Shown in pieces: positions 44,760 through 62,388 of a stretch of DNA of 64,000 bases. Within the stretch, counting starts at the first letter, position 1; every line of letters begins with the position of its first letter. Source of the stretch: Nematostella vectensis (Eukaryota). Position numbers and translations under genes: made by a program. The DNA lies in contig NC_064039.1 in the NCBI RefSeq assembly GCF_932526225.1, positions 6,257,459-6,321,458 on the forward strand, written 5' to 3'. The notes under the pieces are model-generated. The model was not told where the DNA came from and did no database searches. It worked only from the letters and a program-made list of their open reading frames with translations.

Positions 44760-45748
44760 TGAGACAGAAAATCGCCCCTGCTCATGGTTGCTCACTTCCG
44801 GTTTGCCAAGGAAACCCAGATGAACAGGGAACAAATTGAATGGGCGCATGCATTTTTTTTACGCTCGATATATTTATTTTTCAAGAATAGTGTTTCGTTT
44901 TAGTTTTTTTTACTGGATTCGTTAAGAGATTTCTTTATCCCAATCCAAGTCTTAATGGTATACATACCACCAGTACTCTTCCTGTTTGCTCGCCGATACA
45001 ACGTAACCATCTTCGCTTCTTGACTTGGCCTCGCTCCACCTTTGAAGATTGGGCTTGACATCGTTTGCGTCCTCTTTGCTCATGTTGCTGCTGAATTTAA
45101 AAATCATGAAAACACGAACTTTTACAACTAACTATTGGGGAATCTGGAGCGAGTTTAAAAGGTCGACTTTGCCTGATGTGAAAAACAAAACCTACAAGAC
45201 AGAGAAAAATGTGGGTGTTCGAGTGTACTGTAGCCTACCCCGTAGGCATCTCAAAGAGCATTCAACTGTTCAAAGAGCAATAGAGAAAAATTGCCCAACA
45301 CCGCCTGGTTGAACTCCCTGTGGAGTGCTCATGATTTCTCACTTCCGGTTTGCCAAGGAAACCCAAATCAAAGGGGAATAAATTGAATGGACGCATGCAT
45401 GGTTTTACGCTCGATATATTCATTTTTCAAGAATAGTGTTTCGTTCTAGATTTTTCTTACTGGATTCTTTTAGAGATTTCTTTATCCGTATCCAAGTTTA
45501 CACTGAAGAGTAGTGTGTTACCTTTCGGCCTTAGTCGGCTGAACATCGCTCAACTTTTCCAGATCAGGCTTGACATCCTTTGTGTCTTCTTTGCTCATGT
45601 TCCTGCTGACTCTAAAAATTATGAAAGCGTGAACTTTCACAATAAGCGGTATGGGGTAATCTGGAGAAGGTTGGAAGGTCGAATTTGTTTGATGTGAAAA
45701 AAAAAACCCTTCAAGACTGAGGAAAATGTGGGCTAAAGCCTTTCCCTC
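44760..45748 (+). repeat. Host 547-bp tandem repeat (unit 1 complete; unit 2 interrupted by the Maverick/Polinton element and continuing at 62383)
   Basis: The marker CTCACTTCCGGTTTGCCAAGGAAACCC occurs at 44791 and 45338. The units share AATTGAATGG.CGCATGCAT, TTTTCAAGAATAGTGTTTCGTT and a minus-strand MSKED..DVKP.L mini-ORF. Confidence 0.75.
45743..45748. repeat. Target-site duplication, left copy (TCCCTC)
   Basis: Identical hexamer directly abutting both element ends. A 6-bp TSD is the Maverick/Polinton hallmark. Confidence 0.75.
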
Positions 45749-46255
45749 AGTAGTAGGGTTTTGGCGCAGCTGGCGCAACTTTTTGATCTCCCCAAATTTC
45801 ATTCCAAAAGTGGCGCAAAAGTCTCCGCACACCTCCGCCAAGCCTCGCGACCTGCGCATGCGCGAGTTTGCCAGAGATCTCTCGCACGACCAAGCCCACC
45901 TGTCAATCACTTTGTCACGTGACGGCCACGCCCACCTGTCAATCACTTTGTCACGTGACGGCCACGCCCACCTGTCAATCACTTTGTCACGTGATAGCCA
46001 CGCCCACCTGTCAATCATTTTGTAAAAAACCTGTCAATCACTTTGTCACGTGATGACCACGCCCACCTGTCAATCATTTTGTCAAAAACCTGTCAATCAC
46101 TTTGTCAAAAACCTGTCAATCACTTTGTCAAGAACCTGTCAATCACTTTGTCAAAAACCTGTCAATCACTTTGTCAAGAGCCTGTCAATCATTTTGTCAC
46201 GTGATAGCCAAGCCCACCTGTCAATCACTTTGTCACGTGCTGCACCTAGGGGGAG
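45749..46255 (+). repeat. Left terminal inverted repeat of the Maverick/Polinton element
   Basis: The outer ~150 bp are identical to the reverse complement of 62233..62382. They are followed by 12 copies of a subrepeat with core CCTGTCAATCA(C/T)TTTGTCA, in 36-bp (..GTCACGTGACGGCCACGCCCA..) and 23-bp (..GTCAAAAA..) variants. GCGCATGCGC lies at 45854..45863. Confidence 0.9.
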
Positions 46256-46270
46256 CCTGGGGGCTATTCT

Positions 46271-46281
46271 GGTCTAAAGAC
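46271..46281 (+). promoter_or_regulatory. Degenerate early-type box GGTCTAAAGAC upstream of ORF 46301
   Basis: It lies 20 nt before the ATG and carries one mismatch to GGTTTAAAGAC. Confidence 0.3.
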
Positions 46282-46300
46282 GTATGAGACCCTAGATAAA

Positions 46301-46561
46301 ATGACATTAAAGACGGAGGTGAAGATTAAAAACGGTGCGGCTACCGCCGGCGGTTGTTCGGTGCCGGAGGTGAACGTGAGTAACACTGCGGATGCGGGGC
46401 CTGAACACTGCTGTTGTAACGCTGATTACTATGAAGACTCAGAATACGGAAGCTTCGACCCCGTTGGGTTTGTGGCCGGAGCGGCGACAATTGTCCTTGG
46501 TGTTCTAGCAATGTTAGTCTCCATGCCACGGTATGGCGAAAAAAGATGGGTGAGATACTAG
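46301..46561 (+). CDS. Element ORF: small tail-anchored membrane protein (86 aa), function unknown
   Basis: ATG-initiated ORF just inside the left TIR. It is preceded by the degenerate box GGTCTAAAGAC (46271..46281). It has a C-terminal hydrophobic helix, VGFVAGAATIVLGVLAMLV. Confidence 0.35.
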   Translation: MTLKTEVKIKNGAATAGGCSVPEVNVSNTADAGPEHCCCNADYYEDSEYGSFDPVGFVAGAATIVLGVLAMLVSMPRYGEKRWVRY

Positions 46562-46652
46562 TCCACGGATGTGGTGCGGAGGCTTTAGACCGCACCGCCC
46601 CCACGCGGACCCCTTCGGAAGTCTTAGCAACCACACACATCACACCCAGAGG

Positions 46653-46674
46653 GAGCTCGAGGGGCTAGCCTCTC
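46653..46674 (+). other. Palindromic motif copy GAGCTCGAGGGGCTAGCCTCTC (upstream of the TFIIB-like gene)
   Basis: Non-coding copy, ~30 nt upstream of the early box. Confidence 0.6.
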
Positions 46675-46701
46675 AGCTTCACATCTAAAAAAGCTTTTGA
46701 A

Positions 46702-46716
46702 AAGTGGTTTAAAGAC
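46702..46716 (+). promoter_or_regulatory. Early-type TATA-like box AAGTGGTTTAAAGAC (TFIIB-like gene)
   Basis: TTTAAAG starts 26 nt before the ATG at 46734. It is part of a 46-nt block identical to the PolB upstream region. Confidence 0.6.
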
Positions 46717-46733
46717 ATGAACAGTTTAATAAA

Positions 46734-47660
46734 ATGGAGGAACGAACAGTTGAACGTACGGCTGAAGATCGGTCACCACCACCATATAATATCCTCGGCG
46801 GACCGGTGCCTGAGATTAACGCCCCCACCCTCATGCCGGAATTTGCACTGTTTGACCGAGCCCTCACCGAATACGAGACTAGTAGAGCCTCCTTGGGAGA
46901 CGAGGATAGTAGTAACACCCTTTGCAATCATGGCGACCTAGTCACAGAGGACGGGGTCACTAGTTGCTTAGAGTGCGGGGAACAGATGCAGCGCGTGATC
47001 GCGCACGAAAGGGAATGGGGTTTTTACGGACATTCCGACGGCGAACGGTCTTCGGATCCAAGTCGGGTCCAGGTACGTAGGTCTGAGGATAGAAATATTG
47101 ACAAGGATGTGGAGAACATGGGTTTTAGCGGGGTAATTGTATCCAAAGCTAACGAGATATACACTCAGGTGACGAAAGGCCAGATTTTTCGCGGCGACCC
47201 ACGGAAGGCGGTCGTCTTTGCGTGTATCTACTACGCCTACAAGATGTCCGGTAAGTGTCAGACACCGAAAACCTTGATGGAAACTTTTGGATTGAGCAGG
47301 AAGAGTTGCCTTAAGGGTCTAAAAATCTTTAGTATTAACGTGCCTAAAGATTACTTACTACACGGAACGTCTCCCACCGTCGTGGACCACATTCACGATG
47401 TGATGGATAGATTCTCGGCGTCCCCCGCACAGAAGGGAGAGGTGGTCCAGCTCTACTACAGATCTAAGAACCGCTCGTCTGAGTTGAATCGCGCTCGCCC
47501 ACAATCCTTTGCGGTCGCTTTAACCTATTACTGGGTACGGCTAAAGGGGGTCGATATTACACTTAAAAAATTCTCCGAAAGAACGGGCGTCTCCGAGTTA
47601 ACCATCAGTAGGAAAGCGAGAGAAGTGGCCACAGTCCTGGGTACGCCTGGTGTGGTATGA
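46734..47660 (+). CDS. Element-encoded TFIIB-like transcription initiation factor (zinc ribbon + B-reader-like segment + two cyclin folds)
   Basis: 308 aa. CNHGDLVTEDGVTSCLECG..REWGFY..SDPSRVQ parallels TFIIB CPNHPDAILVED..ICPECG..SEWRTF..KDPSRVG. RGDPRKAVVFACIYYAYKMSG..TLMETFGLSRKSCLKGLKIF parallels the first cyclin repeat ([42 protein letters not shown]). RARPQSFAVALTYYWVRLKGVDITLKKFSERTGVSELTISRKAREV parallels the second ([38 protein letters not shown]). The comparison is from memory of the TFIIB sequence, not a computed alignment. Confidence 0.8.
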   Translation: MEERTVERTAEDRSPPPYNILGGPVPEINAPTLMPEFALFDRALTEYETSRASLGDEDSSNTLCNHGDLVTEDGVTSCLECGEQMQRVIAHEREWGFYGHSDGERSSDPSRVQVRRSEDRNIDKDVENMGFSGVIVSKANEIYTQVTKGQIFRGDPRKAVVFACIYYAYKMSGKCQTPKTLMETFGLSRKSCLKGLKIFSINVPKDYLLHGTSPTVVDHIHDVMDRFSASPAQKGEVVQLYYRSKNRSSELNRARPQSFAVALTYYWVRLKGVDITLKKFSERTGVSELTISRKAREVATVLGTPGVV

Positions 47661-47749
47661 TGTTTCCTGATTTCCAGAGAAATCAGGATTTCCAGAAAAC
47701 TGTCAGTTCGGAGTAGATGTGAATTAACACGTCTAAAGAAATTCGAAAA

Positions 47750-47764
47750 AAGTGGTTTAAAGAC
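47750..47764 (+). promoter_or_regulatory. Early-type TATA-like box AAGTGGTTTAAAGAC (ankyrin gene)
   Basis: TTTAAAG starts 26 nt before the ATG at 47782. Confidence 0.6.
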
Positions 47765-47781
47765 GTGGATGTAATAACAAA

Positions 47782-48606
47782 ATGGATATGCAAAGTGCTG
47801 GAAGTCTTACAAATCTCACCGTGGAGGATCAAGCCGCCACCTTAGCGAGGTGGGGAGCCGCAGACTTTGACGCCGTTATGGAGCGCGCGGCGTGGGAGGG
47901 GTGCGTCGAGACCGTGAGGTTGTGTAAGAGTTGGGGTGCGACGGATTTCGAAAAGCCGATGGTCAGGGCCGCAATGAACGGCCACACCGAGATCGTTAAG
48001 ATGTGTTGTGAGTCGGGCGCCTGTGACTTCGTGTATCCAGCGTCCATGGCCGCGAAAGGCGGGCACGTAGAGGTTTTGAAGGTGATGGGCGAGTATTGTG
48101 CCGACGGAGGAGAGGCCATGACCGAGGCCATGGGTGCTGCGGCGGCGGAAGGTCAGGTGGGGGTTGTTGAGTTGTTGATAGATCTAGGTGTCGATGTCGA
48201 TGTCGGTTGGGCCACCGCTGAGGCGGCGTACAATGGGCACGTTGAGGTTCTGAAGCTGCTGAGAGAAAACTTCTGGGAGTTTGACCCGGACTATGCTATA
48301 ACACCAGCCATCGAATCTCGCAACCTCGAGATTGTGAGGTTGTGCTTGGAGTGGGGCGCGACCGATCTCATTGTACATATGAACTACGCACGGTTTTGGC
48401 ATCTGCATAAGATTTTCGCGGTGCTACGTGCGGCGTGGGGGTGGAGTCTTGTGCATGAGGAGCTCCCGGAGAAGCTACACAAGGTGAGATTCCGTAGAAA
48501 GCTGGAGGACGAACTAATGCCAGTAGCTTGGCATCCGGACAGGTTTTGGGATTGGTGCATGGATGAGCAAGAGAAGGAAATGTTGGGAGAATGCTTCGCC
48601 AGGTAG
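47782..48606 (+). CDS. Element ORF: ankyrin-repeat protein with a Trp/Cys-rich C-terminal tail
   Basis: 274 aa with about 6 repeats bearing the ankyrin signature: AAWEGCVETVRLC, AAMNGHTEIVKMC, AAKGGHVEVLKVM, AAAEGQVGVVELL, AAYNGHVEVLKLL, ESRNLEIVRLCLEWGA. The tail is VAWHPDRFWDWCMDEQEKE. The early-type box lies at 47750..47764. Confidence 0.75.
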   Translation: MDMQSAGSLTNLTVEDQAATLARWGAADFDAVMERAAWEGCVETVRLCKSWGATDFEKPMVRAAMNGHTEIVKMCCESGACDFVYPASMAAKGGHVEVLKVMGEYCADGGEAMTEAMGAAAAEGQVGVVELLIDLGVDVDVGWATAEAAYNGHVEVLKLLRENFWEFDPDYAITPAIESRNLEIVRLCLEWGATDLIVHMNYARFWHLHKIFAVLRAAWGWSLVHEELPEKLHKVRFRRKLEDELMPVAWHPDRFWDWCMDEQEKEMLGECFAR

Positions 48607-48647
48607 ACGCCGACCGGCTAGAAGGCGGGTATCGCGTGTTGGATTGA

Positions 48648-48663
48648 AAAGTGATTTAAGGAC
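48648..48663 (+). promoter_or_regulatory. Early-type box AAAGTGATTTAAGGAC (zinc-ribbon gene)
   Basis: It directly abuts the ATG at 48664 and lies 27 nt before the second ATG at 48682. Confidence 0.55.
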
Positions 48664-49011
48664 ATGACCGGTTTGATAGAAATGGAGAACCAAACGGTGA
48701 AAGACTCGAAAGTATCCCCCGTAAAGCGAACAACGGATTATAAGTGTCTTCATGGCAGAGTGAAATATTATTGCAAAGATTGTCACGGATCGCAAATCTG
48801 CCCTCACAACCGGAGAAAAACGCGGTGCAGAGAATGTAACGGCGGTAGCATTTGTGAGCACAGACGAGCAAGATATGTCTGTAAAGACTGCAAGGGGAAA
48901 GGGATGTGTGAACACAGCAAACAGAGACCCTTTTGTAAGTTATGCGGAGGGTCTCAAATATGCGAACACGATAGACAAAAGCACCATTGCAGAACGTGTA
49001 ACGGAAATTAA
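48664..49011 (+). CDS. Element ORF: tandem Cys/His zinc-ribbon repeat protein (putative nucleic-acid binding)
   Basis: 115 aa with four tandem units of C-x-H-x(4-6)-C-x2-C-x-G-x3: CLHGRVKYYCKDCHGSQI / CPHNRRKTRCRECNGGSI / CEHRRARYVCKDCKGKGM / CEHSKQRPFCKLCGGSQI / CEHDRQKHHCRTCNG. It shares the N-terminal MTGLIEMEN and the promoter with the PolB gene. The functional start may be the second ATG at 48682. Confidence 0.6.
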   Translation: MTGLIEMENQTVKDSKVSPVKRTTDYKCLHGRVKYYCKDCHGSQICPHNRRKTRCRECNGGSICEHRRARYVCKDCKGKGMCEHSKQRPFCKLCGGSQICEHDRQKHHCRTCNGN

Positions 49012-49026
49012 CATTGACCCACTCAG

Positions 49027-49053
49027 TTTTGTAACGCGTCTCACGTTACAAAA
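49027..49053. terminator. Perfect 10-bp stem hairpin at the convergence point of the plus and minus gene blocks
   Basis: TTTTGTAACG-cgtctca-CGTTACAAAA, 16 nt after the stop codon of the zinc-ribbon gene. A role in 3' end formation is speculative. Confidence 0.3.
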
Positions 49054-49208
49054 CACATACATTCCTAATCACCCTAACAACTAGCGATTCTGAAAATAGG
49101 TTTTGTATTTACATTGAGAGTTCGCGGTCGCCAGGGTGGTCTGGTATGCACGTGAACAGGTATTGTCTTCTTGCGGTACGTCACATCCGTCCACATGCAC
49201 CCCGCATG

Positions 49209-50735
49209 TTACCGGAATAGATACCAAGCTAAACCAGCCGTAAAGGCTGTGATCGTGACAAGGTTATTTTCGTGCTGCGTGTTCGTGGGTTTAATCACGT
49301 CCGGCTTTGGGTTAGTTTTCGCCTCCGGTTCCGGTTTGTGAGCCGTGACTGACTCGGTATGAGGTAACACAATCTTTGAATGACCCATATTATGTTTAGG
49401 GATCGTTTTTATCTCGTTATTTATCGGATTCAGCCCCAGTTTCATATCAGTGGTGGCTTTTTGTAACTTGTTATTATAGCCAGCGATCGAAGTGTTGTTA
49501 TTTATCACAAGATACGATGGACTTAACCAACAGCCGAGGGCGAAAGCTAGGTCTAGTTTTTGTCTCGCCTGTTGTAAAGCAAACTGATACCGTTGTATAC
49601 TTTTCGATATACTGTTTTCCACCACCGCGCTTTCGAAGAGTTTCGTGAAGACCTGTTTCGTTTCCTGAGCTGAACCGCTATCGCCGACGATTGACGACCG
49701 GGTCTGAACTTGCGCGCCTAGAATACAGTAGACAAAGGCTTCGATGCTCTGGTTTATCCTAGACAACCCAGCTTTGGTTAACCCCATTGATTTTTCCGGA
49801 AAGAACCACTCATACTGAAACCCAGTTCTAAGGTCTTTCAGGTACTCGATCTCAAAGTGATTCATGTGTTCGTGGTCGCTTTTGGCAGCGTCCCATTCGT
49901 CGTGTAATTGATCAATGGTGCCATAAGGCTTATACTTGTCGTTAGAAGATGACAAGCCGTGATAATCATAATTATAAACGTTCCCTAACCCGTGATTTAT
50001 CGGTCTGAGGAACCGGAAATCGTCACCAGTTCGGAATTCTGTTCTTAGTTTTTGGTAAGCCGCTTCGCTGTAAAAGTTTTTATTCCAACTAAAGAGCCTA
50101 TCTTTTGGAAGAGGGCATTGTAGCTCGTTTAATATTCGTCTGATAGTGAAAATGATGTGAAATCTGTAGAATGACCCCACTTGAGAGTCGTCAATCATGT
50201 CACGCGTCACACCACATCCAGCAGTCGCGCAAAACATAGCAAAATTTAAGGCTTGACTCCAATAACTGAGGTTTGGGGCGTCGAGCCACCTACTAGCCTC
50301 CTTTGCTGTTCTGAATACTAGCAAGCTGTCGGTGAATATGTCCCTAAAAACAAAGTGTGTCTTCACCTTTGGTGTTATAAAAACATTAAAAGAGACGTAA
50401 TTATTTCTCGTAGGGTTTTCGTCCCACGGCAATATCTTGTACTCTGCACGCGCGTCTAGTCTGTATTGTTTTGGGAACCCAAACAGTTGCTGGATCGTTT
50501 CCTTGTATGCTTGTGTGTCGTCGGCGACTAGAAAATCCTGGATATTCTCGGGTTTCCAGCTATTACCAGGGAAGTGATATAACGTTTTGACTAGATTCCC
50601 ATTCTTGTCGAATGGATCGTATTCGTCCCCATTGAAAACGAATTGCACATTGCCGTGCCCGTCGGCAGAGAACCTGAAGCGTGAGTAGTAGGGGTACCTT
50701 TTCACAAATTCTGTAAACTTCATCTTATATGACAT
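49209..50735 (-). CDS. Element ORF: 508-aa protein of unknown function with a C-terminal transmembrane anchor
   Basis: Long uninterrupted ATG ORF in the minus-strand gene block. The box GATTTAAAAAC lies upstream at 50743..50755. The C-terminus NLVTITAFTAGLAWYLFR is hydrophobic. I recognise no family motif. Confidence 0.6.
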   Translation of the reverse strand: MSYKMKFTEFVKRYPYYSRFRFSADGHGNVQFVFNGDEYDPFDKNGNLVKTLYHFPGNSWKPENIQDFLVADDTQAYKETIQQLFGFPKQYRLDARAEYKILPWDENPTRNNYVSFNVFITPKVKTHFVFRDIFTDSLLVFRTAKEASRWLDAPNLSYWSQALNFAMFCATAGCGVTRDMIDDSQVGSFYRFHIIFTIRRILNELQCPLPKDRLFSWNKNFYSEAAYQKLRTEFRTGDDFRFLRPINHGLGNVYNYDYHGLSSSNDKYKPYGTIDQLHDEWDAAKSDHEHMNHFEIEYLKDLRTGFQYEWFFPEKSMGLTKAGLSRINQSIEAFVYCILGAQVQTRSSIVGDSGSAQETKQVFTKLFESAVVENSISKSIQRYQFALQQARQKLDLAFALGCWLSPSYLVINNNTSIAGYNNKLQKATTDMKLGLNPINNEIKTIPKHNMGHSKIVLPHTESVTAHKPEPEAKTNPKPDVIKPTNTQHENNLVTITAFTAGLAWYLFR

Positions 50736-50742
50736 ATAAGAT

Positions 50743-50755
50743 GTTTTTAAATCAG
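50743..50755 (-). promoter_or_regulatory. Variant box CTGATTTAAAAAC (ORF 49209..50735)
   Basis: It lies 9 nt before the first ATG at 50735 and ~21 nt before the second ATG (MSYKM). Confidence 0.4.
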
Positions 50756-50813
50756 TCCTTTACGCATCTCAATTCATAGATCCATCCGACGGGAGTTCTC
50801 TCGTACAGAAATT

Positions 50814-51419
50814 TCACCGAGCGGGTCGACTCGCCAGGTCTTTCAAAATCTCTTCTCTTACTGTTTCCCTCAGCTTGGTAATGTTTACGTTTTTTTCGTC
50901 CTCTCTTACCGACTTTTGACGGATCTGGAGCTTTAGAGCCTCAAACTTGTCCACCTCGTTCAAGATTAAAGAGAACTCTTCGTCTGATATTTTGTTGTCT
51001 TTTAAAGCTTTAGAGACCAGGTCGCGTATGCTATTTACTTTTGCCTTTGCCATCGCCGCTGTTTGGTCGTGCTTGGAGACTTTTTGCGACAGCCGTTTAG
51101 AAACCGCCGCACAGCCTACAGACGTAAGACCGAAAACACCGGCCAAAGCACCCAACGGAACTCCGACGACGATACCAAAACCTGACAGAGAAGTCCCCAA
51201 ACCACTAGACCCAAGAATGACGGATAAGAGTCCTAAGACCACACTTAACTTTGAAAACACGCTCTGCCCTCGTTTATACTTTTTCCTCACGTTCTCGTAA
51301 TGTTTAACTTCTTGCTCCAAACTTCCCAAAACATCGTGGGTCTTTTGGAGTCTGAAGTTATCACCCGAGGGGCTGACCCCTCGGGGTACGTTCGGGTAGA
51401 TTGAGTTGTACTCTTCCAT
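50814..51419 (-). CDS. Element ORF: two-pass glycine-zipper membrane protein with a C-terminal coiled coil (201 aa)
   Basis: Central segment LSVVLGLLSVILGSSGLGTSLSGFGIVVGVPLGALAGVFGLTSVGCAAV, followed by a charged helical tail. The box CACTTAAAGAA lies upstream at 51442..51455. Confidence 0.6.
   Translation of the reverse strand: MEEYNSIYPNVPRGVSPSGDNFRLQKTHDVLGSLEQEVKHYENVRKKYKRGQSVFSKLSVVLGLLSVILGSSGLGTSLSGFGIVVGVPLGALAGVFGLTSVGCAAVSKRLSQKVSKHDQTAAMAKAKVNSIRDLVSKALKDNKISDEEFSLILNEVDKFEALKLQIRQKSVREDEKNVNITKLRETVREEILKDLASRPAR
51366..51384 (-). other. Related palindrome CCGAGGGGTCAGCCCCTCG inside ORF 50814..51419
   Basis: It shares the GAGGGG-N-CCCCTC arms with the other copies and encodes PRGVSPS. 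Confidence 0.4.
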
Positions 51420-51441
51420 AGCTTTATTATGGGGAGAATTT

Positions 51442-51455
51442 ATTCTTTAAGTGAT
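51442..51455 (-). promoter_or_regulatory. Variant box ATCACTTAAAGAAT (ORF 50814..51419)
   Basis: It lies ~25 nt before the ATG at 51419 and overlaps the stop codon of the penton candidate. Confidence 0.45.
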
Positions 51456-52070
51456 TTCTAAAATTAGACGTATCGGGTAGAGACCGCGCTCTATTGTGTT
51501 TCCGTCACCACCCTTTATACTAAGACGGAGACTACTCACGTAACCGACTGATGTGGTGCTAACCCGTACCGGATCGCTTGGATTGAGGTATATCTTTCCT
51601 TCATCAAGCTCTACACTTGCTAGGATTTGTGAGGGCGCCCCTTGTTGGAGGGAGTCAGACGCGTTCACAAGATCGCAGTGGATAAAAATAGCCTCGTGAC
51701 CTATCATCTTTATCTCGTGGCGAGTGTTTGCTTCCAGCTCCCTGGTCTTGAGTCCTAACAGGCAGGCGAGCGGCTCATTCAACGCGACGTTCCGGTGAAC
51801 TTCGAGTGACGAGTCTCTAATAGAGACTGACTTTTCACCAAGACGCATACCCCCATCTATTTGACGTTTTAGCGTCTCGATCGTATACTGCCCCGCGGGG
51901 ATCCTAAGGATAATGTTCTCACCGTCGGAGACCGTTCCCTCGCTTGAGAGACTGTTACAACGATTATGAAACGCACATCCTCGCAGCGCGATAAACCGCG
52001 GCTTTTCAATAGGTTGTTCTAAATAGACAGTAAAGTCACCAACGTTTCCTTCAATGTAGAGTAATACCAT
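51447..52070 (-). CDS. Element ORF: candidate minor capsid (penton, single jelly-roll) protein, 207 aa
   Basis: The size, beta-rich composition and position within the morphogenesis block fit a Polinton minor capsid protein. The motif AIFIHCDLV..S resembles penton-like proteins I recall from invertebrate Polintons. No structure prediction was possible here. Confidence 0.45.
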   Translation of the reverse strand: MVLLYIEGNVGDFTVYLEQPIEKPRFIALRGCAFHNRCNSLSSEGTVSDGENIILRIPAGQYTIETLKRQIDGGMRLGEKSVSIRDSSLEVHRNVALNEPLACLLGLKTRELEANTRHEIKMIGHEAIFIHCDLVNASDSLQQGAPSQILASVELDEGKIYLNPSDPVRVSTTSVGYVSSLRLSIKGGDGNTIERGLYPIRLILEIT

Positions 52071-52073
52071 TTG

Positions 52074-53096
52074 TTATGATTTCCGTCTCCTTTTAAATCG
52101 TTCTACGGAATACAGGACGACAGCGACGATGAGAAGCCATGCGTTTTTAGCTAAAAAGCCAACAACTTCACCTGCCGTTCTAAATATGAAACTAGCTATA
52201 GCACCAACCATTCCTGGGAGTATTTCTCCTAATTTTTTGCCTATTGTTTTCAGACCATTTCCAACACCTTTTGCAACACTAGTCAGCCCAGCTTTCAGAT
52301 TAGAGACAATAACACCGATAACAACGCCCACAGCGGTAACGACAGCAGCGACTGTAAATCCGTATTTCTTAAAAATCGCTTTGACACGATCTTTCAACGA
52401 CATTCTCTCTTCAAGATTTTCTCTCTCCAATTGATTCTCTTCCAAAGTCTCATCTATGACAGAATTTCTTTCGCTGAGCTCTTCATTTTTACGATCTATA
52501 GCTCTTAGTCTTTCTTGGTTAGTTGTTTCACTTCGTTCCTCATTATTTTTTCTCATTTGCTCGGTGTTTCTCTCTTCTTCTTCTCTGAGTGTATTACCTG
52601 TAGCGTCTAGTTCATCGAGTTGAATCTGAATTTGCTTGTACTTTCCGGATCTGATTTTGTCGTCAACACTCTTCCGCACCGTTCTATCCTCATTATACAA
52701 CCTTTCTGGTCTAGTCCAACCACCTTTTCTCGCAGAATAGAAGGAAATGAATTGTTTTCCTCTCTCATCCGTTGAAATCTGAACTAGATTTTCATCAAGA
52801 TCTGGATATTTCGATAACAAAAGGTCTACCCTAAGTGTGTCCGTTGAAGGAGAACCTCCCATATTCTGTAACTCCATGTACTCGGGGACAGCCCTCCCGG
52901 GGTTTCGTGTTTTCCATAAGTCAGTCAACCTCCTACTCACATAGCTTGCACCTCTACCAAATCTGTTTGAAATCCTTTCATTCCATGATTCTCTTCCCTC
53001 ACCATCGTTTGGAATAAGAGAGTCATAATCTTCGTCTACAGTAGTATTCAAATCTTCTCTACCTTCTTCTGTTGTGGGATCAAAATCTATATCCAT
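52074..53096 (-). CDS. Element ORF: coiled-coil protein with C-terminal multi-helix glycine-rich membrane domain (340 aa)
   Basis: A central E/R/N-rich heptad-like region (LREEEERNTEQMRKNNEERSETTNQERLRAIDRKNEELSERN) is followed by FTVAAVVTAVGVVIGVIV, ILPGMVGAIASFIF and AWLLIVAVVLY. The box GACTTAAAGATT lies upstream at 53121..53133. Confidence 0.6.
   Translation of the reverse strand: MDIDFDPTTEEGREDLNTTVDEDYDSLIPNDGEGRESWNERISNRFGRGASYVSRRLTDLWKTRNPGRAVPEYMELQNMGGSPSTDTLRVDLLLSKYPDLDENLVQISTDERGKQFISFYSARKGGWTRPERLYNEDRTVRKSVDDKIRSGKYKQIQIQLDELDATGNTLREEEERNTEQMRKNNEERSETTNQERLRAIDRKNEELSERNSVIDETLEENQLERENLEERMSLKDRVKAIFKKYGFTVAAVVTAVGVVIGVIVSNLKAGLTSVAKGVGNGLKTIGKKLGEILPGMVGAIASFIFRTAGEVVGFLAKNAWLLIVAVVLYSVERFKRRRKS
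52089..52100 (-). promoter_or_regulatory. Variant box CGATTTAAAAGG (penton candidate), inside the 3' coding end of the upstream gene
   Basis: It lies ~20-25 nt before the ATG at 52070 and is encoded within ..ERFKRRRKS* of ORF 52074..53096. Confidence 0.4.
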
Positions 53097-53120
53097 TTCT
53101 TATTTTGTTTGAAAATAAGA

Positions 53121-53133
53121 AATCTTTAAGTCG
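53121..53133 (-). promoter_or_regulatory. Late-type box CGACTTAAAGATT (ORF 52074..53096)
   Basis: It lies 34 nt before the ATG at 53096. Confidence 0.5.
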
Positions 53134-53140
53134 TGCCAGC

Positions 53141-53557
53141 TCATATCCACCTACTCGCTACATAGCCAAGGGCTAACATTCCACCTCCAACGTACGCCAT
53201 CTCTCCCATCTTTTGGTTGCTACTTGGTCTGTAGTAATCTGAGAGCTCAGGCTCTTTCAAATCAAAATCTGGATGTGTTTGAGCGTATAGTTTGAAAGCC
53301 TCATCCGTCTCTTTATCGTTCTCATCCGCACGAACTTTATCGTTGTATTGTTCAGTCAACCAATCCTGGTATTCCTGTCTTTTTTTCTGCCAATCACCCA
53401 TTGCTTGTTGATACTTTTCAAGCGCTTTATCGTGTCTTATTTTTTCTTTATCAACATGAGTAGCGTCAGAAGACAAGTATCTCGCTAGGTAACTCCCTCC
53501 GACAAACGCCGTCGCATTAATAAAAGCCCCACCAATCATAAATGCTATACTCGCCAT
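53141..53557 (-). CDS. Element ORF: small membrane protein (138 aa; N- and C-terminal hydrophobic helices)
   Basis: MASIAFMIGGAFINATAFVGGSYLA at the N-terminus and MAYVGGGMLALGYVASRWI at the C-terminus. The box GACTTAAAGATC lies upstream at 53575..53588. Confidence 0.55.
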   Translation of the reverse strand: MASIAFMIGGAFINATAFVGGSYLARYLSSDATHVDKEKIRHDKALEKYQQAMGDWQKKRQEYQDWLTEQYNDKVRADENDKETDEAFKLYAQTHPDFDLKEPELSDYYRPSSNQKMGEMAYVGGGMLALGYVASRWI

Positions 53558-53574
53558 TTATTAATCAATCTATA

Positions 53575-53588
53575 AGATCTTTAAGTCG
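53575..53588 (-). promoter_or_regulatory. Late-type box CGACTTAAAGATCT (ORF 53141..53557)
   Basis: It lies 28 nt before the ATG at 53557. Confidence 0.5.
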
Positions 53589-53589
53589 C

Positions 53590-53814
53590 CTACAGCGGTT
53601 TTGGCAAAATCTTTTGTGTTTCCAGATAATCTTTCAGATACATACTACCGGACAGGACAGCAACCCATTTAGCGTAGTTTGTAACACTTGACGAAGGGTC
53701 GCTGATGAATGACTCTTTCATAGCCTTTTTAGCAACATAACCCACGCCGGCGGCTAATCCGATGATGACTGCTGAGTCGGTGATCGTTTTCACAAGTTTG
53801 TTTTCAGTTGACAT
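53590..53814 (-). CDS. Element ORF: small membrane protein (74 aa)
   Basis: Hydrophobic segments AVIIGLAAGVGYVA and WVAVLSGSMYL. The perfect late-type box GTGATTTAAAGATT lies upstream at 53840..53853. Confidence 0.5.
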   Translation of the reverse strand: MSTENKLVKTITDSAVIIGLAAGVGYVAKKAMKESFISDPSSSVTNYAKWVAVLSGSMYLKDYLETQKILPKPL

Positions 53815-53839
53815 GATTTTATTTATTACAGATTCAGAT

Positions 53840-53853
53840 AATCTTTAAATCAC
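53840..53853 (-). promoter_or_regulatory. Late-type box GTGATTTAAAGATT (ORF 53590..53814)
   Basis: It lies 35 nt before the ATG at 53814. The 14-mer is identical to the one at 54335..54348. Confidence 0.55.
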
Positions 53854-54311
53854 AACATTCCTATTTTTGGCGTCGCGTTCGGGAGGCTAGCCCCTCGAGC
53901 TCCCCCTAGGTGGGAGGTGGGTCTCCCAAGAGTTTCGGCCTCGTTGACGTTAATCTTAGACGGCTCGCCCTCTTTCTTTTTGTAAAAACGCATATACATA
54001 TCCAATGCGGTGAGCCCTATTCCAACTAGAGCCAGTACAGTTGTAAACGATAGCTCTGGAATCCAAGCGTCCGAGAGGCTATCCCCTCGAGCTCCCTCTT
54101 GGTGGGGTGTCTCTGCTCGTGCAGCGTCTTCTGAACTCGCCTCCGCCTCGCGTTTCATCTCCCTAGCAAGTGCTTCTCTACACCTCCTATTATATTCGGC
54201 AACTCTCTTACCAGAAGCGACTTTTATAGGATCTTTCTCCTTAGCGGCACTCTTCTTCCTGGGGGGAGGGTCCTTTGTGATTTGCTCAACCTCTTGATTT
54301 TCGTCAGACAT
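53850..54311 (-). CDS. Element ORF: basic N-terminus plus single-TM protein (153 aa)
   Basis: K/R-rich N-terminus (PPRKKSAAKEKDPIKVASGKRVAEYNRRCREALAREMKRE), then a TM helix LSFTTVLALVGIGLTALDMYM. It contains two in-frame copies of the palindromic motif. The box GTGATTTAAAGATT lies upstream at 54335..54348. Confidence 0.55.
   Translation of the reverse strand: MSDENQEVEQITKDPPPRKKSAAKEKDPIKVASGKRVAEYNRRCREALAREMKREAEASSEDAARAETPHQEGARGDSLSDAWIPELSFTTVLALVGIGLTALDMYMRFYKKKEGEPSKINVNEAETLGRPTSHLGGARGASLPNATPKIGML
53883..53902 (-). other. Palindromic motif copy inside ORF 53850..54311
   Basis: The reverse complement reads GAGCTCGAGGGGCTAGCCTC, encoding GARGASL. It lies ~35 nt upstream of the late box for ORF 53590..53814. 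Confidence 0.6.
54075..54094 (-). other. Palindromic motif copy inside ORF 53850..54311
   Basis: The reverse complement reads GAGCTCGAGGGGATAGCCTC, encoding GARGDSL in the same codon phase as the copy at 53883. Confidence 0.55.
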
Positions 54312-54334
54312 GATTCTTTACTCACTGAATAAAG

Positions 54335-54348
54335 AATCTTTAAATCAC
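54335..54348 (-). promoter_or_regulatory. Late-type box GTGATTTAAAGATT (ORF 53850..54311)
   Basis: It lies 33 nt before the ATG at 54311. Confidence 0.55.
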
Positions 54349-54352
54349 ATCA

Positions 54353-54488
54353 TGCTCAAGAGCTTGCTCAGTTGTGCTCAAGAGCTTGCTCAGGTGTGCT
54401 CAAGAGCTTGCTTAGGTGTGCTCAGGTGTGCTCAAGAGTTTGCTTAGGTGTGCTCAGGTGTGCTCAAGAGTTTGCTCAGTTGTGCTTG
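54353..54488. repeat. Intra-element 22-bp minisatellite (GTGCTCAAGAGCTTGCTCAGGT, with 10-bp short variants), ~6 copies
   Basis: It lies in the spacer between ORF 53850..54311 and ORF 54454..54981 and extends into the last ~10 codons of the latter. Confidence 0.8.
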
Positions 54489-54981
54489 AAACTTCTTGAA
54501 GTTTGTTGGAAGTCTCCTGTGAAGGTGTTAGTTTAACATGCTTAGCGACCCGAAAGATGGCACTAGCAAGTGCTACCATCCTTCCTCCCTTCAATACCAA
54601 GAGACCTGCAAAGTTTGACAATTCGCGTTTAACCAACTCGTCGTTCTGTAAGTCTTTGCTAAGCGCTTCGGTGTCATCTACAGGAACCACGTAGGAAATG
54701 ACTTGAGACACCACTTGAAGTGCTGATTCTACTAATCCATCAGTAACTTGTTTGCCTAAGACAGTCTGGTAGCGAACAAAGTACTTTTCGACGTCTTTCG
54801 CCGGGAGCTTCTTGATGTCCCCTAAACTCATGTCCACACCAAGAAATTCCTTCGTAGTCCCAAGAGATGCGAGAATAGCCAGCGATTCTCGTTTGACTTC
54901 AACATCGTCTTCGAGAGGCTCACCCTTCGAGCTCCCCTTAGACTTAGGCTCCTCTTCCATATAATCCTCAATGCTTGCCAT
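54454..54981 (-). CDS. Element ORF: 175-aa acidic/helical protein, function unknown
   Basis: The ORF track starts at 55047. However, the early-type box AAGTGGTTTAAAAAC (55006..55020) lies inside that extension, 33 nt before the ATG at 54981 (MASIEDYMEEE..). I therefore take 54981 as the start. The protein contains no Cys, so it is not a cysteine protease. Confidence 0.55.
   Translation of the reverse strand: MASIEDYMEEEPKSKGSSKGEPLEDDVEVKRESLAILASLGTTKEFLGVDMSLGDIKKLPAKDVEKYFVRYQTVLGKQVTDGLVESALQVVSQVISYVVPVDDTEALSKDLQNDELVKRELSNFAGLLVLKGGRMVALASAIFRVAKHVKLTPSQETSNKLQEVSSTTEQTLEHT
54915..54934 (-). other. Palindromic motif copy inside ORF 54454..54981
   Basis: The reverse complement reads GAGCTCGAAGGGTGAGCCTC, encoding SSKGEPL in the same codon phase. 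Confidence 0.5.
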
Positions 54982-55005
54982 CTTATTTTGTAAGTAGACC
55001 AAGAT

Positions 55006-55020
55006 GTTTTTAAACCACTT
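55006..55020 (-). promoter_or_regulatory. Early-type box AAGTGGTTTAAAAAC (ORF 54454..54981)
   Basis: It lies 33 nt before the ATG at 54981 and directly follows a palindromic-motif copy. Confidence 0.5.
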
Positions 55021-55021
55021 C

Positions 55022-55043
55022 GAGGGGTCAGCCCCTCGAGCTC
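55022..55043 (-). other. Palindromic motif copy abutting the early box of ORF 54454..54981
   Basis: The reverse complement reads GAGCTCGAGGGGCTGACCCCTC, immediately followed by GAAGTGGTTTAAAAAC. Confidence 0.55.
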
Positions 55044-55670
55044 TCACCGCGTGGCAGGAATCTCCAAATAACGTTGGAATGGATGTCGTAGGCAGAAACA
55101 GAGTCTGGAATACTTTTCAGTTTTCAGCAGTTCTACAAACTTTTTACGAGTCTCAACGTCTAAGTCACCCCCATAATCTTCAAACAGTGTTTTGGTACCG
55201 ATTTGAGATGGATTATGGAATGTAACCACACAGGCGACGTTATCACGGAAGGGCTTTGCTATGGATGTTAATTGTTGCGTCAATACCCACACTGATAATC
55301 CTTCGTGTCTCCCTGAGAACGCTAAATTGATAAACTTGTTCGAGCGTTGCTTTAGATCTTTCGATACAGCACAGTCATCCAAAACGAGTAACGTATTTGT
55401 ACCAGAAAATAGCACCGCACAATCTGTTAGTAACTCGTTAATCTCATCGGTGTTACTAGCATCCGGCGATAATACCAAGAAACGTTTATCTCCGTGAGCA
55501 AATCTACGATAGGACTTGTTTTTCGCATAAGTCGGACAAATCAACACAATGTATTCAAACACATGCCGGAACGGCCCTCGGAGCTGTTCCGTGAGGTACT
55601 TTGTCTTCCCACAATTAGTAGGTCCTGTGATAATACAATGAAAAGGAACTTTTTCCCGTAATTCTTCCAT
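55044..55670 (-). CDS. FtsK/HerA-type DNA-packaging ATPase
   Basis: Walker A is IITGPTNCGKT and Walker B is LLVLDDCA. The size (~208 aa) and position next to the capsid gene are typical of Polinton and PRD1-adenovirus-lineage packaging ATPases. The ORF-track start at 55691 is a TTG; the first ATG is at 55670 (MEELREK), ~25 nt downstream of the box TATTAAAAAGGAC. Confidence 0.85.
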   Translation of the reverse strand: MEELREKVPFHCIITGPTNCGKTKYLTEQLRGPFRHVFEYIVLICPTYAKNKSYRRFAHGDKRFLVLSPDASNTDEINELLTDCAVLFSGTNTLLVLDDCAVSKDLKQRSNKFINLAFSGRHEGLSVWVLTQQLTSIAKPFRDNVACVVTFHNPSQIGTKTLFEDYGGDLDVETRKKFVELLKTEKYSRLCFCLRHPFQRYLEIPATR

Positions 55671-55691
55671 TCTTTTTGTATTATCACACAA

Positions 55692-55705
55692 GTCCTTTTT
55701 AATAC
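55692..55705 (-). promoter_or_regulatory. Variant box GTATTAAAAAGGAC (ATPase gene), overlapping the MCP stop codon
   Basis: It lies ~25 nt before the ATG at 55670. The MCP TAA stop codon is embedded in the box. Confidence 0.45.
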
Positions 55706-56937: not shown

Positions 56938-56961
56938 CTTTTATTTTAAGAAAAGAGAGAT

Positions 56962-56975
56962 AATCTTTAAATGAG
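56962..56975 (-). promoter_or_regulatory. Late-type box CTCATTTAAAGATT (MCP gene), overlapping the integrase start codon
   Basis: It lies 34 nt before the MCP ATG at 56937. The palindromic TTTAAA core sits in the 33-bp divergent MCP/integrase spacer. Confidence 0.55.
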
Positions 56976-61838: not shown

Positions 61839-61853
61839 GTCTTTAAACCACTT
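61839..61853 (-). promoter_or_regulatory. Early-type TATA-like box AAGTGGTTTAAAGAC (PolB gene)
   Basis: It abuts the ATG at 61838 and lies 27 nt before the second ATG at 61820. Confidence 0.6.
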
Positions 61854-61881
61854 TTCAAAAGCTTTTTTAGATGTGAAGCTT

Positions 61882-62382: not shown

Positions 62383-62388
62383 TCCCTC
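62383..62388. repeat. Target-site duplication, right copy (TCCCTC)
   Basis: See the left copy. If 62383 is counted as TIR instead, the TSD is the 5-bp CCCTC. Confidence 0.75.

What the first reader, a model, noticed from the sequence alone, without database searches (positions are those of the whole stretch)
46791..46838. Shared short linear motif IL.GP(V/I)PEIN(A/V)P.L.P near the N-termini of the TFIIB-like protein and PolB
Seen in sequence:
- TFIIB-like aa 20-35 reads ILGGPVPEINAPTLMP (46791..46838). PolB aa 75-90 reads ILDGPIPEINVPILKP (61569..61616, minus strand).
- By my manual base comparison (not a computed alignment) the underlying DNA appears roughly two-thirds identical, so this would be a homologous module rather than low complexity.
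- Both motifs lie in Pro-rich linkers. SPPPY, a PPxY-type motif, sits just upstream in the TFIIB-like protein, and SPPPPPRR sits upstream in PolB.

Inference: the motif may be a common docking peptide for a host or element partner. Possibilities include a nuclear import factor, the capsid/packaging machinery, or coupling of transcription and replication factors at the TIRs.
Basis: partly seen in the sequence, partly recalled or inferred. Interest (0 to 1): 0.55.

Follow-up and report, generated by a model that had tools for sequence, protein, structure and literature searches.

The report
Polymerase tail motif copied onto TFIIB
A 16-residue peptide shared by two genes of a sea-anemone Polinton virus-like element is real: it is a strongly conserved, previously undescribed motif in the disordered tail of the element's protein-primed DNA polymerase, and it got onto the TFIIB-like gene because that gene borrowed the polymerase's promoter and first codons.

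Summary

**The element.** It is an intact 16.6-kb Polinton/Maverick (45749..62383) with TIRs and a CCCTC target duplication, most likely in Nematostella vectensis.

**In PolB.** The motif (consensus N-I-L-D-E-P-V-P-E-I-N-V-P-I-L-K-P) is:
- the most conserved block of a disordered tail between a Rho_N/SAP-like domain and the terminal-protein domain;
- found in 71 clusters out of 1.84 billion representative proteins, essentially all PolB N-termini;
- conserved as protein, not as DNA;
- repeated in tandem in some lineages.

**In the TFIIB-like protein.**
- It lies in a 33-aa N-terminal extension that the listed non-Nematostella homologues lack; those inspected begin at the residue matching M34.
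- The DNA of that extension is a collapsed copy of the PolB promoter and 5' coding region.
- Among 21 Nematostella variants, the motif is the fastest-evolving segment of the protein.

**Verdict.** This is a genuine new peptide module of the polymerase's terminal-protein tail. It spread inside the element by duplication of a promoter/5' cassette. A shared docking function remains possible but unsupported, and the binding partner is unknown.

The parts
46791..46838 (+). Motif copy in the TFIIB-like protein: ILGGPVPEINAPTLMP (aa 20-35)
   Evidence: It lies in an N-terminal extension that AF2 predicts as disordered (pLDDT<50 for aa 1-33).
61569..61616 (-). Motif copy in pPolB: ILDGPIPEINVPILKP (ORF aa 75-90). 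This is the ancestral, strongly conserved copy.
   Evidence: AF2 gives coil with pLDDT 61-65, between linkers of 42-43 (N-terminal side) and 55 (C-terminal side).
46346..46393 (+). Third, half copy of the motif in small ORF86: AGGCSVPEVNVSNTAD (core VPEVNVS at 46361-46381)
   Evidence: this is the third of only three [VI]PE[IV]N hits in the window. DNA island CGGCGG..CGGTGCCnGAGnTnAACG is shared with the TFIIB copy.
46734..46832 (+). 33-aa N-terminal extension of the TFIIB-like gene (leader MEERTVER, SPPPY, motif), ending just before the ancestral start codon M34
   Evidence: the non-Nematostella homologues among the 120 listed all cover only 80-92% of the query, and the 35 whose N-termini were printed begin at or shortly before the residue matching M34; the extension is a collapsed copy of the PolB 5' region.
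46734..47660 (+). TFIIB-like gene (308 aa): N-terminal helix, zinc ribbon and two cyclin-fold repeats
   Evidence: Pfam TFIIB repeat 1.5e-8, homologues, AF2 model.
57912..61838 (-). Protein-primed PolB. Layout: Rho_N (aa 7-38), linker, motif, two helices (102-161), TP/D1 domain (176-290), vOTU-like region, Exo domain with an HNH insert, and Pol domain. The probable true start is at 61820.
   Evidence: The architecture matches that described in PMC11161782.
46640..46754 (+). Promoter/leader cassette in front of the TFIIB-like gene (TCTAAAAAAGCTTTTGAAAAGTGGTTTAAAGACATG...ATGGAG)
   Evidence: 83% identical to the PolB cassette over 115 nt, with an exactly identical 46-nt core.
61801..61915 (-). 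Promoter/leader cassette in front of PolB, directly next to the right TIR repeats
48644..48712 (+). Partial cassette plus leader (MENQTVKD) in front of the Cys-rich ORF3 (48664..49011). No motif is present.
   Evidence: Inverted repeat I15, 87%.
46242..46300 (+). Degenerate cassette in front of ORF86, directly next to the left TIR repeats
46301..46561 (+). ORF86: an 86-aa ORF with a leader, the half motif and a C-terminal hydrophobic stretch
   Evidence: No family hit was found.
45749..46261 (+). Left TIR: a unique terminus followed by arrays of 23/36-nt units containing CACGTG
61894..62383 (-). Right TIR
45744..45748 (.). Target-site duplication CCCTC; the second copy is at 62384-62388

Best explanation
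The motif is a conserved peptide module in the disordered N-terminal tail of the terminal-protein (TP) part of the element's protein-primed DNA polymerase. Its consensus is N-I-L-D-E-P-V-P-E-I-N-V-P-I-L-K-P. It lies between a Rho_N/SAP-like DNA-binding domain and the TP domain.

It most likely works as a short linear docking peptide that binds a conserved partner in an extended conformation. Because it is tandemly duplicated in some lineages, and because its family-wide conservation would be matched by a partner of comparable conservation, I think an element-encoded partner is the most likely kind. Candidates are the polymerase/TP of the same element at the genome ends, or the packaging/capsid machinery. 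That step is inference and the partner is unknown.

Its presence in the TFIIB-like protein, and a half copy in ORF86, is explained by history. The PolB promoter, start codon and first codons form a cassette at the inner edge of the TIR. This cassette was duplicated inside the element and fused in frame to other genes. Internal deletions then removed the Rho_N domain and most of the linker.

In the TFIIB context the peptide is translated in at least some subfamilies, but it evolves under relaxed constraint. It is probably a tolerated passenger, or at most a weak version of the tag, rather than an equally functional docking site.
For: **Shown, for PolB**
- The motif is present in nearly all N-terminal PolB homologues, at 40-50% overall identity.
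- A profile of the motif finds 71 representative clusters at E<=1e-3 among 1.84e9 proteins. On inspection essentially all are PolB N-termini with the layout Rho_N, motif, FADWILSYVPEP.
- It scores 3.52 bits per column, against 1-1.6 bits in the flanks.
- Identity by codon position across 14 coding copies is 0.75/0.86/0.41, so the conservation is at protein level.
- Tandem copies occur in several lineages.

**Shown, for the origin of the TFIIB copy**
- All non-Nematostella homologues among the 120 listed cover only 80-92% of the query, so they lack the extension; the 35 whose N-termini were printed begin at or shortly before MSEFALF, which corresponds to M34.
- The extension aligns collinearly with the PolB 5' region: the cassette, a GTCACCACCACCA island, and the motif.
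- The unusual D-G-P variant is shared by the Nematostella PolB and the TFIIB consensus.
- The same cassette precedes ORF3, Ank and ORF86.

**Shown, for constraint**
- TFIIB copy versus PolB copy: dS 1.38, dN 0.19, with differences by codon position 1/4/9 (p=0.03).
- Among 21 TFIIB variants the motif is the least conserved segment (0.78-0.81, against 0.86-0.96 elsewhere). L21 is P in 19/21, D22 is G in 10/21, and E27 is R, G or K in 7/21.
- M34 is lost in 7/21 variants that still have intact ORFs, so the extension must be translated in those copies.
Against: - No binding partner was identified, and no interaction could be modelled.
- The low dN/dS between the TFIIB and PolB copies, together with invariant N-I-x-x-G-P-V-P and L33 in all 21 TFIIB variants, could mean the TFIIB copy is still functional.
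- The sample of TFIIB variants is young (dS about 0.02 between two copies). It includes dead insertions, so its 'relaxed constraint' may partly be post-insertion decay.
- No PolB N-termini from other Nematostella copies were available for a like-for-like comparison.
- No other complete element of this clade could be inspected at both ends, so I cannot say how general the cassette duplication is.
Confidence: 0.6

Rival explanations
1. Shared functional tag. The peptide is a portable docking tag kept on PolB/TP, the TFIIB-like factor and ORF86. It brings all three to the same partner, for example a replication-transcription hub at the genome ends, the packaging vertex, or a host factor.
For: - In-frame retention of the motif occurs in two further genes, even though the Rho_N domain and linker were deleted.
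- dN/dS is about 0.14 between the TFIIB and PolB copies, with saturated synonymous sites.
- N19, I20, G23-P26 and L33 are invariant in 21 TFIIB variants, and the extension is always open. M34 is lost in 7 variants.
Against: - The motif is the fastest-evolving segment of TFIIB.
- PolB-invariant positions (L76, D77, E82, I87) are not kept in TFIIB.
- ORF86 keeps only the first half of the motif.
- No motif on a non-PolB protein was found in any other lineage.
- All homologues outside Nematostella among the 120 listed lack the extension by query coverage; N-termini were read for 35 of them.
Confidence: 0.22
2. In the TFIIB-like gene the 'extension' is really a 5' UTR. Transcription starts just downstream of the first ATG and translation starts at the ancestral M34, so the peptide is not made from this gene at all.
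For: - M34 is retained in 14/21 variants, including the window copy.
- No ATG lies between 46737 and M34.
- The TATA-like TTTAAAGA lies only 26 nt upstream of the annotated ATG.
- This segment is the least conserved part of the protein.
Against: - 7/21 variants have V or T at position 34 yet keep a full 308-codon ORF. These would lack the N-terminal helix and zinc ribbon if translation began downstream.
- The frame is open in all 21 variants, and the only indel is one whole codon.
- All other genes of the element use an ATG 26-34 nt after the same promoter motif.
Confidence: 0.12
3. The conserved sequence acts as DNA or RNA (an origin, packaging or promoter-downstream element), not as a peptide.
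For: It lies close to the TIR and promoter in both genes. The ORF86 and TFIIB copies show no third-position relaxation (16/19 nt identical).
Against: - Third codon positions are essentially randomised across 14 PolB copies (0.41, against 0.75 and 0.86).
- The same holds between the two window copies (7/16).
- The amino-acid consensus is maintained through many different codons.
Confidence: 0.02
4. The motif is a processing site for the element's protease (adenain-like (M/I/L)XGG|X, or vOTU cleavage after GG). Cleavage would remove the cassette-derived leader, and in TFIIB it would release something close to the native protein.
For: - The window TFIIB copy reads I-L-G-G|P, and 10/21 variants have G-G.
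- The motif ends exactly at the ancestral start of TFIIB.
- PolB carries a vOTU-like Cys/His region, and PMC11161782 proposes vOTU-mediated TP cleavage.
Against: - The family consensus is I-L-D-E-P with no glycine.
- The PolB copy in this same element reads ILDGP.
- Pro at P1' is unfavourable (from my own knowledge).
- No Ulp1/adenain-like protease could be identified in the element.
Confidence: 0.04

Closest known systems
TP-vOTU-pPolB architecture of Polinton polymerases (PMC11161782, PNAS 2024)
   Same: The window PolB has:
- an alpha/beta domain at aa 176-290 (4-5 strands and 2 helices, as the paper's section 6 describes for TP/D1) whose best structural matches are Y-family little-finger domains; the paper's reference list cites little-finger work, but I did not read the section that makes that comparison;
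- a following Cys/His region (HECFKW, NHYCW);
- all Exo and Pol motifs of a protein-primed PolB.
   Different: - In the abstract and the two sections I read, plus the term searches, that paper does not mention the tail upstream of D1.
- Here the tail carries a Rho_N/SAP-like domain, the conserved 17-aa motif and two long helices.
- The motif is sometimes repeated in tandem, alone or together with the following DW..YVP.P block.
N-terminal tails of terminal proteins in adenovirus and phi29 (nuclear or nucleoid targeting, and recruitment through the parental TP)
   Same: A flexible, DNA-end-attached TP tail carrying targeting or recruitment determinants. This rests on established knowledge and on what PMC11161782 summarises.
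   Different: - The motif is acidic and hydrophobic with fixed prolines, not a basic NLS.
- No experimental data exist for any Polinton TP.
- The resemblance is functional analogy only.
Fusion or truncation of boundary genes at terminal inverted repeats in linear dsDNA viruses and plasmids, and re-use of promoter cassettes inside virophages and giant viruses
   Same: - The same promoter block recurs in front of several genes.
- The gene at each end reads inward from the TIR edge.
- The 5' coding part of one terminal gene is found at the other end.
   Different: - Here the duplication carried a functional-looking peptide in frame onto unrelated proteins (a transcription factor and a small hydrophobic ORF).
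- It also occurs at internal positions (ORF3, Ank), so it is not simple TIR extension.
Known linear-motif classes recalled from memory: PxLxP MYND ligand (as in adenovirus E1A-BS69), PPxY WW ligand, class 1a CRM1 NES
   Same: - P86-I-L-K-P90 fits PxLxP and is near-invariant in the PolB family.
- L-x3-[VI]-x2-I-x-V fits the NES spacing.
- TFIIB has SPPPY.
   Different: - These patterns are short and common, and cover only part of a 17-residue conserved block.
- The prolines violate the usual NES definition.
- PPxY is absent from PolB.
- None of these could be tested.

Membership tests
Polinton/Maverick element | [quoted passage not shown] | tested here: met
   ExoI YADFES, ExoII HNLSGYD, ExoIII, and motifs A (DANNLYG), B (KLMNNSVFG) and C (TDTDS) are all present. 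Homologues are named DNA polymerase. No Pfam PolB hit was found.
Polinton/Maverick element | Retrovirus-like (rve) integrase | tested here: met
   Pfam rve, 9.9e-8, at the gathering score; ORF 56971..57963.
Polinton/Maverick element | Capsid and packaging module (DJR major capsid protein, A32/FtsK ATPase, Ulp1-like protease) | tested here: inconclusive
   The A32 ATPase is met (3.7e-11). The capsid match is only a weak Capsid_N hit (0.0036). No protease was found.
Polinton/Maverick element | Terminal inverted repeats and a short target-site duplication | tested here: met
   TIRs of 513 and 490 bp at 92-97% identity. CCCTC flanks both ends.
TP(D1)-vOTU(D2)-pPolB architecture | N-terminal TP/D1 fold: a 4-5 stranded sheet with two helices, resembling a little-finger domain | tested here: met
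TP(D1)-vOTU(D2)-pPolB architecture | vOTU cysteine protease domain with catalytic Cys and His | tested here: inconclusive
   Candidate motifs HECFKW and NHYCW were seen by eye. That region of the AF2 model has pLDDT<50, and no profile match was found.
Short linear motif (docking peptide) | Short conserved island within a rapidly evolving, intrinsically disordered region | tested here: met
   3.52 against 1-1.6 bits per column. Coil with pLDDT 61-65, between linkers of 42-43 and 55, in PolB. pLDDT<50 in TFIIB.
Short linear motif (docking peptide) | Binds a defined partner domain | not testable with these tools
   No multimer prediction or binding data were available.
Adenain-type cleavage site (M/I/L)XGG|X or (M/I/L)XGX|G | Gly at P2 (and at P1 or P1') | tested here: not met
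   The family consensus is ILDEP. Only a subset of TFIIB copies read I-[LP]-G-G-P.
PPxY WW-domain ligand as a shared feature | P-P-x-Y present in both proteins | tested here: not met
   TFIIB has SPPPY, with Y in 20/21 variants. PolB has SPPPPPRR with no Y. This region is not conserved in PolB homologues.
MYND ligand PxLxP | P-x-L-x-P pattern | tested here: met
   P86, L88 and P90 score 3.9-4.2 bits in PolB. In TFIIB, P31 is kept in 20/21 variants, L33 in 21/21 and P35 in 17/21. This is a pattern match only. The definition was recalled from memory, and binding is not testable.
TFIIB family (for the carrier protein) | Zinc ribbon plus two cyclin-fold repeats | tested here: met
   Pfam TFIIB repeat 1.5e-8. 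C64, H66, C78 and C81 are invariant. AF2 shows strands at 69-87 and two helical repeats at 133-302.

The most novel reading that the evidence does not exclude
The 17-residue peptide is a transferable recruitment tag. It tethers the genome-linked terminal protein/polymerase to a conserved partner. In the Nematostella lineage it was deliberately co-opted, through the promoter/5' cassette, to bring a giant-virus-type TFIIB and a small membrane-anchored protein to the same place. That would physically couple replication, transcription and possibly packaging at the ends of a Polinton genome. Tandem motif copies in other lineages would tune avidity.
Probability: 0.2. Interest if true: 0.7.

Novelty: new variant of a known kind. 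Interest (0 to 1): 0.45.

Why it matters
- **An experimental handle.** No Polinton has a worked-out replication or packaging mechanism, and its terminal protein was recognised only recently by structure modelling. A sharply conserved, disordered, sometimes multimerised peptide in the TP tail is a concrete tool. A synthetic peptide could be used to fish for the partner, and motif deletion is a clean test.
- **A route to new chimeric proteins.** The case shows how a virus-like element builds such proteins: a promoter plus the first codons act as a mobile cassette.
- **A caution for sequence readers.** A shared motif in two proteins of one element can reflect shared 5' DNA rather than shared function.

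Tried and rejected
**Searches that led nowhere**
- Exact-protein look-ups of the window TFIIB and of three Nematostella paralogues found nothing, so no paralogue DNA was available. Only one 1.2-kb JGI copy was obtained, and it was too close (dS 0.02) to inform on selection.
A 40-aa profile gave only 5 hits through the word index, all PolB fragments.
- The cassette 24-mer had no match in metagenome contigs. The strict motif DNA pattern had none in viral contigs.
- The looser pattern gave 57 loci. About 45 of these are an antisense artefact (…LLPVPEINTPTFF…, …RRFVPVPEINAPIL…). Only 8 are true hits, and all are PolB-type.

**Hypotheses tested and not supported**
- TIR-array co-occurrence: no tandem arrays were found upstream of PolB in two distant elements. 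There is therefore no support for a model in which a factor binding the TIR repeats docks the motif.
- No protease was found in the element by Pfam or PHROGs.
- PDB sequence search of the polymerase domain found nothing, so PolB identity rests on catalytic motifs.

**Readings rejected**
- Chance or low complexity.
- A DNA/RNA-level element.
- An adenain site.
- A 2A-like skipping peptide (no NPGP).
- A PIP box, NLS, PxIxIT or LxxIxE motif, judged by eye from memory of the patterns.
Full report
**1.
- 46791..46838 (+) encodes ILGGPVPEINAPTLMP, aa 20-35 of ORF 46734..47660.
- 61569..61616 (-) encodes ILDGPIPEINVPILKP, aa 75-90 of ORF 57912..61838.
- DNA identity is 34/48, and matches by codon position are 15/12/7 of 16.
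- BLASTP of the two proteins gives 11/17 identities, E=2e-4.
- No 16-mer in 300 shuffles reaches 11 identities; the shuffle mean is 6.9 and the maximum 10.
- The core [VI]PE[IV]N occurs three times in the six-frame translation of the 64-kb window, against 0.12 expected.

**2. Context.**
- The motif-bearing genes are the outermost genes of an intact Polinton/Maverick element at 45749..62383 (16,635 bp).
- The element has TIRs of 513 and 490 bp, built from 23/36-nt units that contain CACGTG.
- CCCTC flanks both ends.
- Pfam finds a TFIIB repeat, ankyrin repeats, an A32-like ATPase, a weak capsid match and an rve integrase.
- The large ORF has every Exo and Pol motif of a protein-primed PolB, plus an HNH/EndoVII insert.
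- The host is Nematostella vectensis. The TFIIB-like protein has dozens of 83-96% identical RefSeq paralogues there.

**3. What the motif is in PolB.**
- A search with PolB aa 1-200 found about 50 homologues, mostly from large eukaryotic contigs at 40-50% identity. Nearly all carry N-I-[LM]-D-x-P-[VI]-P-E-I-[NK]-[VI]-P-I-L-K-P.
- A 32-column profile of the motif was scored against 1.84 billion representative proteins. It gave 71 clusters at E<=1e-3.
- On inspection essentially all 71 are PolB N-termini with the same layout: a Rho_N/SAP-like helix pair, a variable linker, the motif, then ...FADWILSYVPEP... and ...ALKGYLKTYRI.G.... No unrelated protein family appeared.
- The motif averages 3.52 bits per column against 1-1.6 bits in its flanks. 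It is the most conserved 16-mer in the first ~270 residues.
- Across 14 different coding copies, nucleotide identity by codon position is 0.75/0.86/0.41, so selection acts on the peptide.
- Several lineages carry two or three tandem copies. In some the whole unit [motif + DW..YVP.P block] is repeated.
- AF2 on aa 1-450 with 48 sequences gives the following:

| Residues | Prediction |
|---|---|
| 10-40 | confident Rho_N |
| 49-69 | disordered linker |
| 71-90 | motif as coil, pLDDT 61-65 |
| 102-161 | two long helices |
| 176-290 | alpha/beta domain, pLDDT>90 |

- The domain's strand and helix count matches the fold that PMC11161782 describes for the terminal-protein (D1) domain of Polinton pPolBs. 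The paper says D1 is followed by a vOTU protease proposed to cleave TP off. Its reference list also cites Y-family little-finger work, but I did not read the section that makes that comparison.
- Candidate vOTU Cys/His motifs are visible.
- The motif therefore sits in the flexible tail of the part of the protein that stays attached to the genome ends.

**4. How the motif got onto TFIIB.**
- All non-Nematostella homologues of the TFIIB-like protein among the 120 listed (50-70% identical, ~275 aa) cover only 80-92% of the query.
- The 35 whose N-termini I printed start at or shortly before MSEFALFEQAL, which aligns with M34 of the window protein (LMPEFALFDRAL). Only the Nematostella copies have the 33-aa extension.
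- The DNA upstream of both genes is the same cassette. It runs 46640-46754 versus the reverse complement of 61801-61915, at 83% identity, with an identical 46-nt core.
- Homology continues collinearly into the coding region as three islands:
  - the leader MEERTVER versus MENLKVKD;
  - GTCACCACCACCA, encoding SPPP;
  - the motif itself.
- The Rho_N domain and most of the linker are deleted from the TFIIB copy.
- The unusual D-G-P at motif positions 3-5 is shared by the Nematostella PolB and the TFIIB consensus. Most other PolBs have D-E-P or D-Q-P there.
- The donor was therefore the PolB of this lineage, and the direction of transfer was from PolB to TFIIB.
- The same cassette also precedes other genes:
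  - ORF3 (48664..49011), with the leader only;
  - the ankyrin gene, with the promoter only;
  - ORF86, in degenerate form directly next to the left TIR. ORF86 keeps the first half of the motif, with a DNA island 16/19 identical to the TFIIB copy.
- AF2 predicts TFIIB aa 1-33 as disordered. The body is a normal TFIIB with a helix, a zinc ribbon and two cyclin folds.

**5. Is the TFIIB copy still under selection?**

Evidence for selection:
- Between the TFIIB and PolB copies, synonymous sites are saturated (dS 1.38) while dN is 0.19. Differences by codon position are 1/4/9, p=0.03.
- N19, I20, G23-P26 and L33 are invariant in 21 variants.
- The extension is always open.
- The ancestral M34 is replaced in 7 of 21 variants that keep full ORFs, so the extension is translated there.

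Evidence against selection:
- In those 21 variants the motif is the least conserved segment of the protein. Its pairwise identity is 0.78-0.81, against 0.86 and 0.905 for the other disordered linkers and 0.956 for the zinc ribbon.
- Positions that are near-invariant in PolB have changed:
  - L21 is P in 19/21;
  - D22 is G in 10/21;
  - E27 is R, G or K in 7/21.
- The one available paralogue DNA is too close (dS 0.02) to help.

My reading is relaxed constraint, with some residual conservation that I cannot separate from short divergence time.

**6. Mechanism.**

Shown:
- It is a conserved, disordered, protein-level motif of the TP tail.
- It spread within the element by cassette duplication.

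Inferred:
- It is a docking peptide.
- Its proline-punctuated hydrophobic pattern (I-L..P-V-P..I..V-P-I-L..P) suggests binding in an extended conformation.
- Tandem copies suggest avidity for an oligomeric partner.
- Conservation across divergent elements suggests a partner that is equally conserved. I favour an element protein: the polymerase/TP at the genome ends, by analogy with parental-TP recognition in phi29 and adenovirus, or the packaging machinery.
- A conserved host domain is not excluded. The P-x-L-x-P half matches the MYND-ligand pattern as I remember it.
- I found no support for a TIR-array-binding partner, because two distant elements lack arrays upstream of PolB.
- Rival readings are scored separately in the Rival explanations section: a shared functional tag, a 5' UTR, a nucleic-acid element, and a protease site.

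**7. Comparison with what is known.**
- The element is a Polinton, and its PolB fits the published TP-vOTU-pPolB architecture.
- In the parts of PMC11161782 and the two other Polinton papers that I read or term-searched, the Rho_N-motif-helix tail, the motif itself, and a TFIIB-like gene in a Polinton are not described. My literature search was limited.
- The motif meets the descriptive criteria of a short linear motif but belongs to no class I could match.

**8. Verdict.**
The proposed meaning, a common docking peptide for TFIIB and PolB, is only weakly supported.
- The main new facts are:
  - a previously undescribed conserved motif of the Polinton TP tail;
  - a promoter/5'-coding cassette that has created chimeric N-termini on unrelated genes.
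- Interest is moderate (0.45).

Noticed in passing
window 46301..46561 (+); motif core 46361-46381: A small 86-aa ORF lies directly inside the left TIR edge. It has a cassette-derived leader, a half copy of the motif (GGCSVPEVNVS), a CCC cluster and a C-terminal hydrophobic stretch that could be a tail anchor. It matches no family.
   Followed up: partly
window, 26-34 nt upstream of the ATG of at least 10 of the 15 element ORFs (for example 46708, 47756, 51451-, 53130-, 53585-, 54344-, 56971-, 61847-): An element-wide promoter-like motif, [ACT]TTAAAGA, occurs 12 times in the element against 10 in the other 74% of the window. An extended version (TCTAAAnAA..TTGAAAAGTGGTTTAAAGAC[AG]TG) precedes only the inward-reading end genes: ORF86 (partial), TFIIB, Ank, ORF3 and PolB. 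That suggests two promoter classes, possibly read with the element's own TFIIB-like factor.
   Followed up: partly
window 46718 vs 46734; 61838 vs 61820; 48664 vs 48682: Each cassette has two ATGs 16-18 nt apart. In TFIIB the first is out of frame because of a 1-nt deletion; this is also the case in the independent copy L066. PolB homologues begin at the second one (MENxKVKDLK). The first ATG is therefore probably upstream of, or at, the transcription start.
   Followed up: partly
TFIIB-like gene 46734..47660; locus L065: The TFIIB-like protein is 50-70% identical to more than 100 metagenomic proteins, some on contigs of 365-384 kb. One neighbourhood examined (L065) has NIF phosphatase, P9_TM and WW/UCH genes and looks like a giant virus. 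This suggests gene exchange between giant viruses and this cnidarian Polinton.
   Followed up: partly
window PolB aa 598-630 (about 59949-60047, -): An HNH/Endonuclease VII-like insert (CHICEGELGEDKVLDHCHLTGKYRGAAHNACN) lies between the ExoI and ExoII motifs of the polymerase. It is also called in the distant element L001.
   Followed up: no
window 48664..49011 (+): ORF3 is a 115-aa protein made of repeated C-x-H-x5-C-x2-C-x-G-x3-C units. It matches no Pfam or PHROG family. It shares the PolB leader (MENQTVKD) but not the motif.
   Followed up: no
window 45886-46199 and 61894-62246: The TIRs consist largely of arrays of ACCTGTCAATCACTTTGTCA units, with or without a CGTGAYRGCCAMGCCC extension. 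This gives many CACGTG (E-box) palindromes at each end. Two distant relatives showed no such arrays upstream of PolB.
   Followed up: partly
PolB aa 123-131 (WILSYVPEP), window about 61446-61472 (-): The second most conserved block of the tail (FADWILSYVPEP) resembles the motif itself (IL-x-x-(x)-VPE). In some lineages (L004, P0192) it is repeated together with the motif as one unit. The two blocks may be parts of one functional module.
   Followed up: no
window about 54345-54430 (-), upstream of ORF 53850..54311: A short tandem repeat (GAGCACACCTGAGCAAGCTCTT-like units) lies immediately upstream of the promoter motif of the 153-aa ORF.
   Followed up: no
loci L009-L064 (metagenome and viral contigs): The degenerate DNA pattern for P[VI]PEIN.P..L mostly hits the antisense strand of an unrelated conserved gene (translations …LLPVPEINTPTFF… and …RRFVPVPEINAPIL…). 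This is a recurrent false positive to be aware of when scanning for this motif.
   Followed up: yes
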